A stretch of DNA of 61,970 bases, taken from assembly GCA_944349415.1 (NCBI GenBank), contig CALVMX010000003.1, positions 1 through 61,970 of the forward strand. Direction: 5' to 3'. Positions within the stretch are counted from its first letter, which is position 1. Every line of letters starts with the position of its first letter. Below the pieces are notes generated by a model. That model was not told the origin of the DNA, ran no database searches, and saw only the letters and a list, made by a program, of their open reading frames with translations. This document shows positions 59,262-59,342 of this stretch, one piece after another. Made by a program: the position numbers and the translations under genes. The stretch comes from an uncultured Clostridia bacterium (GTDB lineage Bacteria > Bacillota > Clostridia > Christensenellales > UBA1242).

Positions 59262-59342
59262 GGGCGAAGTAAAATCTCGAGTCCTCGAGATTTTCGACTG
59301 CCTAAAAGGCAGTCAGCCGTGAAAATTCACGGCACTTCGCCC
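59262..59342. repeat. Perfect four-way-junction (cloverleaf) palindromic element B
   Basis: Outer stem GGGCGAAGT/ACTTCGCCC (9 bp) encloses hairpins of 10-11, 8 and 7-8 bp with 0-1 nt linkers. Confidence 0.88.

What the first reader, a model, noticed from the sequence alone, without database searches (positions are those of the whole stretch)
59262..59342. Perfect 81-nt four-way-junction element between the spoIVA terminator and the next promoter
Seen: outer stem GGGCGAAGT 59262-70/ACTTCGCCC 59334-42. It closes H1 AAAATCTCGAG 59271-81/CTCGAGATTTT 59284-94, H2 GACTGCCT 59296-303/AGGCAGTC 59307-14 and H3 GCCGTGAA 59316-23/TTCACGGC 59326-33. All four stems are fully Watson-Crick, with linkers of 0-1 nt. 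It is GC-rich in an AT-rich genome and lies outside both neighbouring predicted transcripts. It is not a tRNA (no T/D loops, no CCA) and no riboswitch motif is visible. Inference: because it uses no G-U pairs it folds equally on both strands, which suits a DNA/ssDNA structure (a REP-like or non-autonomous HUH-transposase substrate, or a Holliday-junction mimic) as well as a small RNA.
Basis: partly seen in the sequence, partly recalled or inferred. Interest (0 to 1): 0.78.

Follow-up and report, generated by a model that had tools for sequence, protein, structure and literature searches.

The report
Four-armed palindromic DNA repeat family
The 81-base sequence really does fold into a flawless four-armed junction, but it is not a one-off: it is one of at least 25 copies of an apparently undescribed family of small palindromic repeats scattered behind genes in this uncultured chicken-gut Clostridia genus, whose arms stay perfectly paired while their sequences change.

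Summary
Observation confirmed. Window 59262-59342 folds as a closing stem plus three abutting hairpins, all Watson-Crick, on both strands (z about -8 to -9.5). It sits between the spoIVA terminator and the M18 aminopeptidase promoter.

It is not unique. A structure scan of the 1.18-Mb genome found 25 elements of the same design (78-94 nt). All are intergenic and almost all lie just past a gene's 3' end. BLAST misses them because their sequences differ.

A covariance model found the same design in 16 other species of the genus and none outside it. Every modelled pair covaries (307 two-sided against 5 one-sided changes) and about 1% of pairs are G-U.

Copy number is volatile: the nearest species has 2 copies. 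Our site is empty in four relatives, and empty alleles of two other copies exist in a lineage about 95% identical. Orthologous copies keep perfect stems through compensatory changes, while loops vary between strains.

RNA contigs read through copies inside operons but do not cover ours. There is no Rfam hit, no tRNA, no intact Y1/RAYT transposase, no clear target duplication and no strand bias.

Best reading: a REP/MITE-like DNA-level nested-palindrome repeat, with this copy a recent and probably functionless insertion. I found no published description.

The parts
59262..59342 (.). The 81-nt nested palindrome (four-way junction). Outer stem 59262-70/59334-42. H1 59271-94 (AAAATCTCGAG arm). H2 59296-314 (GACTGCCT arm). 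H3 59316-33 (GCCGTGAA arm). By hairpin order it is in the minority 'reverse' orientation on the + strand.
   Evidence: fold on both strands, RNA and DNA parameters. (best hit of the family model, 57.9 bits). (intact in at least 9 public runs; the only internal variant is 59325 A>G, in the H3 loop).
59243..59261 (.). G-rich left flank (GTGCAAGAGGGTGTGAGGG) that has no counterpart in relatives. It probably arrived with the element. Its limits are approximate.
   Evidence: Alignment of the spoIVA-M18 spacer with G081, G030, G070 and G065. Variants at 59242 and 59261 between strains.
59343..59385 (.). GC-rich right flank (AAAGCCTATGAAACCGCCAAGCCAACAGATAGGAG) that is also absent from relatives. Together with the left flank it makes the lineage-specific insert about 140 nt long. 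Its limits are approximate.
   Evidence: Variant 59349 T>C in strains.
59213..59241 (+). Intrinsic terminator of spoIVA: an 11-bp stem with one G-U pair, loop TAAG, and a T tract. It lies upstream of the element.
   Evidence: Read. My own scan gives dG -11.8 plus a T run. The RNA contig of spoIVA ends at 59218. The tool's stricter consensus scan did not list this terminator.
59398..59426 (+). Promoter of the M18 aminopeptidase gene (TTGCGA, 17 nt, TG-TATAAT). It lies downstream of the element and is conserved in G081.
   Evidence: The RNA contig of the downstream gene starts at 59458.
999..1082 (.). A second family member in the same window, of the GGCAAAATCAC outer-stem subfamily. It lies 93 nt behind a 208-aa gene.
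57708..59201 (+). spoIVA, the upstream neighbour. It is not part of the element.
   Evidence: Pfam SpoIVA_ATPase, middle and C domains, E 4e-112.
59447..60865 (+). M18 aminopeptidase gene, the downstream neighbour. It is not part of the element.
   Evidence: Pfam Peptidase_M18, E 3e-89.

Best explanation
The element is one copy of a genus-specific family of 78-94-bp 'palindromes of palindromes'. Each is a GC-rich closing inverted repeat enclosing three perfect hairpins with almost no linker. The family behaves like REP/MITE-type non-autonomous DNA repeats.

Copies appear and disappear in spacers just behind genes. This copy, with about 60 nt of extra GC-rich flank, arose in the spacer between the spoIVA terminator and the next promoter after the split from the nearest sampled species. 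Here it is most likely a passenger with no role for either neighbouring gene.

Shown:
- family membership
- volatile copy number and empty sites
- strictly Watson-Crick covariation
- conserved stems with fast-changing loops
- passive transcription of other copies
- no RNA coverage of this copy

Inferred: the constraint acts on DNA, because both strands must keep the fold. Hairpins or cruciforms would extrude during replication or under supercoiling. Mismatched copies would then be corrected arm-to-arm (template switching of the quasi-palindrome type) or lost. The exposed loops would be the mutable part.

Not known: how new copies are made. No dedicated transposase was found.
For: FAMILY
- 25 copies of the same architecture occur in the 1.18-Mb genome. 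They hold 928 pairs with only 4 G-U, all at helix ends, and no decayed copies were seen.
- Subfamily relatives of our copy share the GGGCGAAG outer stem and the GACTGCC and AAAATCTCG hairpins: C10:18750, C8:11942 and C5:48545.
- A covariance model finds perfect four-way junctions in 16 of 60 other genus genomes and none in 94 other genera of the order.

COVARIATION
- 96.2% of cells are paired, against 61% in shuffles.
- All 29 modelled pairs covary.
- There are 307 two-sided and 5 one-sided changes, and about 8 G-U cells out of 917.

TURNOVER
- The nearest species, G081, has 2 copies across about 1.01 Mb fetched.
- 18 of 20 syntenic sites are empty there.
- Our site is empty in G081, G030, G070 and G065.
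- A lineage about 94-96% identical lacks the rpsL-rpsG and nusG copies (joints).

ORTHOLOGUES
- own C10:575 / G081, own C11:9635 / G030 and own C18:20126 / G030 keep the fold through compensatory double changes.
- G033 / G068 show 0 of 74 stem changes and 5 of 11 loop changes, with flanks about 80% identical.

LOOPS
- The rpsL copy has four H2-loop alleles and a replaced H1 loop among strains under 2% apart. Runs X33 and X34, whose type is not on record, show these too.
- The pgk copy loop changes from AGGT to GGTC.
- Our copy's only internal variant is in a loop.

SYMMETRY
- Orientation relative to the adjacent gene is 16:8, and relative to the leading strand 12:7. Neither is significant.

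NOT AN RNA GENE
- No Rfam hit and no tRNA.
- No T tract follows any copy.
- RNA contigs run straight through copies inside operons.
- None covers ours, although spoIVA is at depth 80.
Against: - No mobilising enzyme, no clean target-site duplication and no near-identical donor copy were found. 'Mobile' therefore rests on presence/absence patterns, which repeated loss could also produce.
- Two own copies are shared with G030 but missing in G081, so losses certainly occur.
- Stems at orthologous sites change more slowly than their flanks. That is what selection for a function predicts, and it is not expected of pure junk.
- More than half of the copies lie within 20 nt of a stop codon and ahead of any terminator, so they are part of mRNAs. 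An RNA-level benefit is therefore not excluded.
- The covariation counts come from an alignment fitted to the model.
- Elements in other genomes were found because they fold well, which is an ascertainment bias.
- The RNA evidence is from assembled contigs without strand information.
Confidence: 0.6

Rival explanations
1. Host-beneficial RNA element. When co-transcribed, the very stable junction at the 3' end of a cistron protects the upstream mRNA from 3'-to-5' exonucleases, or marks a processing site between cistrons. REP sequences do this in enterobacteria. Selection on RNA would keep the stems paired.
For: - 13 of 24 copies start within 20 nt of a stop codon, with no terminator in between.
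- Copies sit inside operons (rpsL-rpsG, nusG-next gene, pgk-next gene), and RNA contigs contain them.
- Stems are conserved at orthologous sites while the flanks diverge.
- There is a slight excess of one orientation relative to the upstream gene (16:8).
Against: - This copy lies behind a terminator and has no RNA coverage, although spoIVA is at depth 80.
- G-U pairs are almost absent, and one-sided changes are 60-fold rarer than two-sided ones. That is unlike known structured RNAs.
- Both orientations occur.
- The nearest species does without the element at 18 of 20 of the same sites.
- The one stem mismatch seen in the rpsL copy is C-A on the mRNA strand.
- Loop hypervariability seen in runs X33 and X34 (type not on record) points to a DNA-level process.
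Confidence: 0.2
2. Host DNA-level function. The extruded junction or cruciform is a binding or working site for structure-specific chromosomal proteins (HU-type, RuvA/RecU-type, gyrase). It would act as a supercoil sink or a nucleoid contact point behind genes, as proposed for some REP/BIME clusters.
For: - Strand-symmetric, Watson-Crick-only pairing.
- No orientation bias.
- Stems conserved at orthologous sites.
- A near-invariant AAAATTT arm base and a GCnnGC arm base that could be recognition features.
- Placement at gene ends.
- Precedent: REP325, HU and cruciform contacts in E. coli (PMC4550694).
Against: - Copy number ranges from 2 to 25 between sister species with the same gene order, which is hard to reconcile with a needed chromosomal function.
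- No protein partner was identified.
- Nothing here shows that extrusion happens in vivo, apart from the indirect loop hypermutability.
Confidence: 0.12
3. Chance palindrome or a unique remnant of foreign DNA with no relatives.
For: BLAST finds no sequence copy in the genome or in 60 relatives.
Against: 0 of 200 shuffles fold as well. 24 further copies of the same architecture, subfamily relatives with shared arms, and members in 16 other species all exist.
Confidence: 0.01

Closest known systems
REP / BIME / REPIN elements with RAYT transposases (Proteobacteria; PMC2817692)
   Same: - Short GC-rich extragenic palindromes.
- Many dispersed copies behind genes, in both orientations.
- Species-specific abundance.
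- Often co-transcribed as 3' UTR.
- Pairing conserved.
   Different: - A REP is a single imperfect hairpin of 20-40 nt with a conserved GTAG/CGTC head, usually over 100 copies, and is tied to a rayt gene flanked by two REPs.
- Here the unit is one closed four-way junction of three perfect hairpins, at 2-25 copies per genome, in a Clostridia genus.
- There is no intact Y1/RAYT gene.
Bacterial MITEs (e.g. Correia, RUP, bcr1, Nezha; reviews PMC3184786, PMC10969869)
   Same: - Small non-coding elements with terminal inverted repeats.
- Insertion/empty-site polymorphism.
- Folding into stable structures.
- Can land inside operons.
   Different: - MITEs have target-site duplications and a parent IS with matching ends. 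Their copies are similar in sequence, and their interior is not organised as abutting perfect hairpins.
- Here no clean duplication was found.
- No long-range pair of outer arms around a gene was found.
- Copies are too divergent for BLAST.
Parvovirus (AAV-type) inverted terminal repeats and other nested DNA palindromes
   Same: - A palindrome that contains smaller palindromes and folds into a branched DNA junction on either strand.
- Two 'flip/flop' orders of the inner hairpins exist.
   Different: - The viral ITR is a three-way (T-shaped) junction at the end of a linear single-stranded genome, with a Rep nicking site.
- Here the element is a chromosomal, internal four-way junction with no associated replication protein.
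- This is a resemblance of shape only, recalled from general knowledge and not tested.
Integron attC sites
   Same: Structure is conserved and sequence is variable. The site is recognised as folded single-stranded DNA and lies behind gene cassettes.
   Different: - attC is one imperfect hairpin with extrahelical bases and R/L boxes, and it is strand-specific and tied to IntI.
- Here the stems are perfect, there are three hairpins, there is no strand bias and the neighbours are ordinary housekeeping genes.
Quasi-palindrome template-switch mutagenesis (E. coli and yeast genetics; general knowledge)
   Same: It is a known replication process that copies one arm of an inverted repeat from the other and so makes imperfect palindromes perfect. 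That would explain Watson-Crick-only stems and clustered multi-base changes at loops.
   Different: It is a mutational mechanism, not an element family. Its action here is inferred from patterns and not shown.

Membership tests
REP/REPIN (RAYT-associated) | A cognate rayt (Y1 HUH transposase) gene in the genome, flanked by inverted REPs | tested here: not met
   PF01797 search. The own genome has only a 60-codon fragment with 4 stop codons at C16:27410-27592, and no family copy lies on contig C16. Only 7 of 60 other genus genomes have any match, whereas the repeat was found in 16 of 60.
REP/REPIN (RAYT-associated) | A single short imperfect palindrome with a conserved 5' tetranucleotide (GTAG/CGTC), typically over 100 copies | tested here: not met
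   The unit is 78-94 nt with four perfect helices. There are 25 copies here and 2 in the nearest species. No GTAG/CGTC head is present.
REP-like lifestyle (extragenic, behind genes, both orientations) | Extragenic location at 3' ends of genes, with both orientations present | tested here: met
   25 of 25 copies are intergenic and 23-24 of 25 lie next to a gene's 3' end. Orientation is 16:8.
MITE | Terminal inverted repeats | tested here: met
   The outer stem is a perfect 8-14-bp inverted repeat in every copy.
MITE | Target-site duplication flanking each copy | tested here: inconclusive
   - At one site (C18:20126) TTTWGGAGG lies on both sides against a single copy in G081.
- At the rpsL-rpsG site, 103 nt are replaced by AAAAT in the empty allele and there is no duplication.
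- The other sites are too diverged to read.
MITE | A parent insertion sequence with the same ends | tested here: not met
   No outer-arm pair brackets a gene-sized segment in a meaningful way. No transposase was linked to any copy. Neighbours are housekeeping genes.
Any Rfam RNA family, including tRNA | A covariance-model match at or near the gathering score | tested here: not met
   No hit overlaps the element even at E up to 10. No hit falls on 14 other copies at gathering score. ARAGORN finds nothing.
Intrinsic terminator | A GC-rich hairpin followed directly by a T tract, with transcripts ending there | tested here: not met
   No copy is followed by a T tract. RNA contigs pass through copies in the rpsL-rpsG, pgk and nusG spacers.
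Structured regulatory or small RNA | Strand-specific conservation, G-U tolerance and a discrete transcript | tested here: not met
   - About 1% of pairs are G-U, and there are 5 one-sided against 307 two-sided changes.
- Both orientations occur.
- No RNA covers this copy.
- Caveat: the RNA data are unstranded assembled contigs.
Integron attC | A single imperfect hairpin with extrahelical bases, R/L boxes, strand bias and an integron context | tested here: not met
   Stems are perfect and there are three hairpins. There is no strand bias. Flanking genes are pgk, nusG, rpsL, ligA, polA, rnc, era and spoIVA. An integrase search was not run.
In-vivo cruciform / Holliday-junction mimic | Extrusion on supercoiled DNA and cleavage or binding by junction-specific proteins | not testable with these tools
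   Only indirect evidence is available: a DNA-parameter fold of -34.7 kcal/mol and hypervariable loops seen in runs X33 and X34, whose type is not on record.

The most novel reading that the evidence does not exclude
Four-way-junction nested palindromes could be a distinct, structure-defined class of DNA element rather than a REP or MITE variant.

In this reading, the working form is the folded single strand or cruciform, a Holliday-junction look-alike with four perfect helices. Ubiquitous host machinery would handle it: hairpin and junction nucleases, and template switching at replication forks. That machinery would keep the arms perfect, scramble the loops, excise copies and occasionally seed new ones, all without a dedicated transposase.

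Earlier unchecked notes of this scan report the same architecture, with unrelated sequences, in other Clostridia, Verrucomicrobia, Zixibacteria and DPANN archaea. If those hold, the design has arisen repeatedly.
Probability: 0.2. Interest if true: 0.85.

Novelty: new variant of a known kind. Interest (0 to 1): 0.62.

Why it matters
If this reading is right, small-genome gut Clostridia carry a kind of interspersed repeat that standard annotation, BLAST and Rfam do not detect. It is defined by shape rather than sequence.

The family gives a natural system for an old question: do DNA hairpins and cruciforms form in living cells, and what do cells do with them? Here the stems are held perfect, the loops mutate many times faster than their surroundings, and whole copies come and go between close lineages.

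There are practical consequences too:
- These elements break short-read assemblies.
- They can be mistaken for RNA genes or terminators.
- They insert into core operons such as rpsL-rpsG, so they may alter mRNA fate.

For this particular locus the message is sobering. The striking structure is probably a passenger, not a regulator of spoIVA or the aminopeptidase gene.

Tried and rejected
- Sequence search for copies. BLAST in the own genome and in 60 relatives found nothing. This was misleading, and a structure scan was needed.
- Rfam at a permissive threshold, and ARAGORN, found nothing.
- MAFFT alignment of all 25 trimmed copies was gapped and unusable. I used 10 in-register trimmed copies to seed the model. 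The genome search scores only 33-150 pre-filtered candidates per genome, so counts in other genomes are lower bounds.
- RAYT/IS200 hypothesis: only a dead fragment was found.
- Parent IS with the same ends: the long-range outer-arm pairs look like chance. Extra occurrences of outer-arm words lie in coding sequence and do not fold.
- Orientation bias relative to the neighbouring gene or the leading strand: not significant.
- Terminator function: no T tracts, and RNA reads through.
- Target-site duplication: no consistent rule.
- Genes present here but absent from the low-copy sister species, as candidates for a mobilising enzyme: 208 ORFs, too unspecific to follow.
- Strain SNPs in our copy as a test of stem constraint: 0 of 5 variants fall in the 72 stem bases, but this is not significant (p about 0.18).
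- Loop inversion (flip of loop sequence) as the source of loop variants: the observed alleles are not reverse complements.
- Literature: four full-text searches found no description of such elements.

Full report
THE OBSERVATION

The sequence at 59262-59342 is exactly as described. A 9-bp closing stem encloses hairpins of 11, 8 and 8 bp, with linkers of 0-1 nt and loops of 2-3 nt. That makes 36 Watson-Crick pairs and no G-U.

- As RNA, the + strand folds into this four-way junction at -55.0 kcal/mol (z -8.0) and the - strand at -53.3 (z -8.7). As DNA it folds at -34.7 (z -9.5). No shuffle out of 200 does as well.
- The element is 52% GC in a 33% GC genome.
- Contigs from at least nine independent public runs, mostly chicken-gut metagenomes, carry it intact, so it is not an assembly artefact.
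- Upstream lies spoIVA (Pfam) with a hairpin-plus-T-tract terminator at 59213-59241.
- Downstream lies an extended -10 promoter at 59398-59426, which is conserved in the nearest species, followed by an M18 aminopeptidase gene.

IT IS NOT UNIQUE

BLAST found no second copy in the genome or in 60 relatives. A scan for chains of perfect hairpins, followed by a fold-based scan of all 51 contigs, found 25 elements with the same architecture.

- Each has an outer stem of 8-14 bp, three abutting hairpins and linkers of 0-2 nt, for a total length of 78-94 nt.
- One of them is at 999-1082 of this window.
- Together they hold 928 predicted pairs, of which only 4 are G-U, all at helix ends. Almost nothing lies in between: relaxing the filter added no convincing decayed copies.
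- The sequences differ, but subfamilies are visible. Our copy shares the GGGCGAAG outer stem and the GACTGCC and AAAATCTCG hairpins with C10:18750 and C8:11942, and shares the outer stem with C5:48545.
- A common type has a GYNYGC hairpin, a GAAAAC hairpin and an AAAATTTTTAAC hairpin.

WHERE THE COPIES SIT

- All 25 are intergenic, and 23-24 lie next to the 3' end of a gene.
- 13 of 24 start within 20 nt of the stop codon with no terminator in between. Seven or eight, including ours, lie behind a terminator. None is followed by a T tract.
- The neighbours are ordinary housekeeping genes: pgk, nusG, rpsL, ligA, polA, rnc, era, spoIVB and a 6462-aa surface protein.
- One copy lies 9 nt after rpsL, inside the str operon.
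- Orientation, defined by the order of hairpin types, is 16:8 relative to the adjacent gene and 12:7 relative to the leading strand inferred from GC skew and gene strand. Neither is significant.

DISTRIBUTION AND COVARIATION

I built a covariance model from ten copies trimmed to a common geometry.

- Despite the tool's strong pre-filter, it found hits in 16 of 60 other genomes of the genus. Fourteen hits, from 12 of those species, folded into perfect four-way junctions when fetched.
- It found none in 94 other genera of the order, though sensitivity there is low.
- I then counted pairs on the model-fitted alignment of 33 matches from this and the other species:
  - 96.2% of cells pair, against 61% in shuffles and 30-53% with slid partners.
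  - All 29 modelled pairs show changes on both sides.
  - There are 307 two-sided changes against only 5 one-sided ones, and about 8 G-U cells out of 917.
  - The base of one arm (AAAATTT) and a GCnnGC pattern in another are nearly invariant.
- The alignment is fitted to the structure, which inflates such counts. Even so, the near-absence of G-U intermediates is the opposite of what structured RNAs show.

TURNOVER BETWEEN SPECIES AND STRAINS

I fetched essentially the whole genome of the nearest species, G081 (SpoIVA 90% identical), and ran the same scan. It has 2 copies.

- Of 20 own loci with clear synteny, 18 are empty in G081, one holds an orthologous element and one a possible remnant.
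- Our site is empty in G081, G030, G070 and G065. The own genome has about 140 extra GC-rich bases there, at roughly 59243-59385. Parsimony therefore favours a gain in the own lineage.
- Losses also happen: two own copies (C11:9635, C18:20126) have orthologues in G030 but not in G081.
- A lineage about 94-96% identical, seen in metatranscriptomes X27 and X30, lacks the rpsL-rpsG copy (103 nt replaced by AAAAT) and the nusG copy.
- No consistent target-site duplication emerges. One site has TTTWGGAGG on both sides; the rpsL site has none.

HOW COPIES EVOLVE

- Four orthologous pairs keep the junction while their sequences change. The pairs own C10:575 / G081, own C11:9635 / G030 and own C18:20126 / G030 show one to four compensatory double substitutions each, plus rebuilt hairpin tips and one or two single G-T states.
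- G033 / G068 show 0 changes in 74 stem bases and 5 in 11 loop bases, although the surrounding 380 nt are only 79.5% identical.
- Between strains under 2% apart, the changes pile up in loops.
  - In the rpsL copy the H1 loop GCA becomes TTTCG, and the H2 loop has four alleles (GAAC, GATT, TTTT, TTCT). Runs X33 and X34, whose type is not on record, show these too.
  - The only stem changes there are single G-T or C-A states at helix ends.
  - In the pgk copy the loop AGGT becomes GGTC while 66 stem bases are unchanged.
  - In our copy the only internal variant in all the strains examined is 59325 A>G, in the H3 loop. The other spacer variants (59235, 59242, 59261, 59349) lie outside the element. 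That count alone is not significant.

TRANSCRIPTION

- In metatranscriptome X25, the spoIVA contig (depth 80) ends at 59218 and the next contig begins at 59458. Nothing covers the element in four RNA runs.
- Copies that lie inside transcription units are covered by RNA contigs that run straight through them: C9:18411, rpsL-rpsG, pgk and nusG.
- So the elements are transcribed passively, do not terminate transcription and do not appear as discrete RNAs.
- These are unstranded assembled contigs, so the evidence is indicative only.

INTERPRETATION

The element is a member of a genus-specific family of nested-palindrome repeats with a REP/MITE-like lifestyle. Several features fit a constraint on DNA, where both strands must fold, better than a strand-specific RNA function:
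- strand symmetry
- Watson-Crick-only covariation
- lack of orientation bias
- volatile copy number
- hypermutable loops

A plausible mechanism is that the hairpins extrude on single-stranded DNA at the fork or as cruciforms. Mismatches would then be erased by arm-to-arm template switching or lead to loss, while the exposed loops are processed and resynthesised. This is inferred, not shown.

What argues against 'pure junk' is that stems at orthologous sites evolve more slowly than their flanks, and that many copies are built into mRNAs right after stop codons. I therefore keep two rivals alive: an RNA 3'-end or intercistronic role (0.2) and a chromosomal DNA-structure role (0.12).

How new copies arise is open. 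There is no intact Y1/RAYT transposase, no parent IS and no near-identical donor copy.

COMPARISON WITH KNOWN SYSTEMS AND NOVELTY

- REP/BIME/REPIN elements are the closest in lifestyle, but they fail on the defining RAYT link and on architecture (PMC2817692).
- MITEs share terminal inverted repeats and indel polymorphism, but target duplications and a parent IS were not found.
- Rfam families, tRNA, intrinsic terminators and attC sites are excluded by test.
- Four full-text literature searches found no description of four-way-junction repeats.
- Earlier notes of this scan report the same design in other lineages, and another copy in this window. They are unchecked AI notes that I read after finding the family myself. 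I treat them as agreement, not as evidence.

VERDICT

As a locus-specific device it is ordinary, probably a passenger. As a family it is an apparently undescribed variant of bacterial palindromic repeats, with an unusually clean signature of DNA-level structural maintenance.

Noticed in passing
window 999-1082: A second perfect four-way-junction element of the GGCAAAATCAC outer-stem subfamily lies 93 nt behind a 208-aa gene. It has the same architecture as the finding.
   Followed up: yes
own genome C8:28733-28823 (L139 17733-17823): A family copy sits inside the str operon, 9 nt after the rpsL stop codon and about 37 nt before rpsG. RNA contigs read through it. A lineage about 95% identical has the empty site, and the copy's loops have at least four alleles among close strains.
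   Followed up: yes
own genome C30:6398-6872: Three tandem 187-nt units each contain two perfect hairpins. They sit next to a sequence resembling a tRNA 3' end (GGTTCAAATCCTGCCACC...CCA). This may be a duplicated tRNA-end or integration-site array.
   Followed up: no
own genome contigs C46, C47, C50: These contigs are much more GC-rich than the 33% GC genome and carry many ORFs absent from the sister species. They are probably contamination (CheckM-type contamination 2.6%) or a foreign mobile element binned with the genome.
   Followed up: no
own genome C16:27410-27592: A degenerate IS200/IS605-type Y1 transposase fragment of 60 codons with 4 stop codons. It is the only trace of an HUH transposase in the genome.
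   Followed up: partly
window 57708-59218: spoIVA is represented at contig depth 80 in a chicken-gut metatranscriptome (X25), far above neighbouring genes. This suggests active sporulation of this uncultured species in the gut.
   Followed up: no
own genome C18:19820-20125 (L141): A roughly 300-nt leader ending in a strong terminator hairpin precedes the C18:20126 copy and a downstream gene. It looks like a riboswitch or T-box-type leader, but no Rfam family reached gathering score. The repeat has landed between that terminator and the gene's ribosome-binding site.
   Followed up: partly
own genome C1:11946 versus G081 C1:7619-7652: Several copies abut or overlap the stop codon. At the 6462-aa gene, the last residues differ from the sister species' longer tail. 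Insertions may therefore have re-terminated reading frames.
   Followed up: partly
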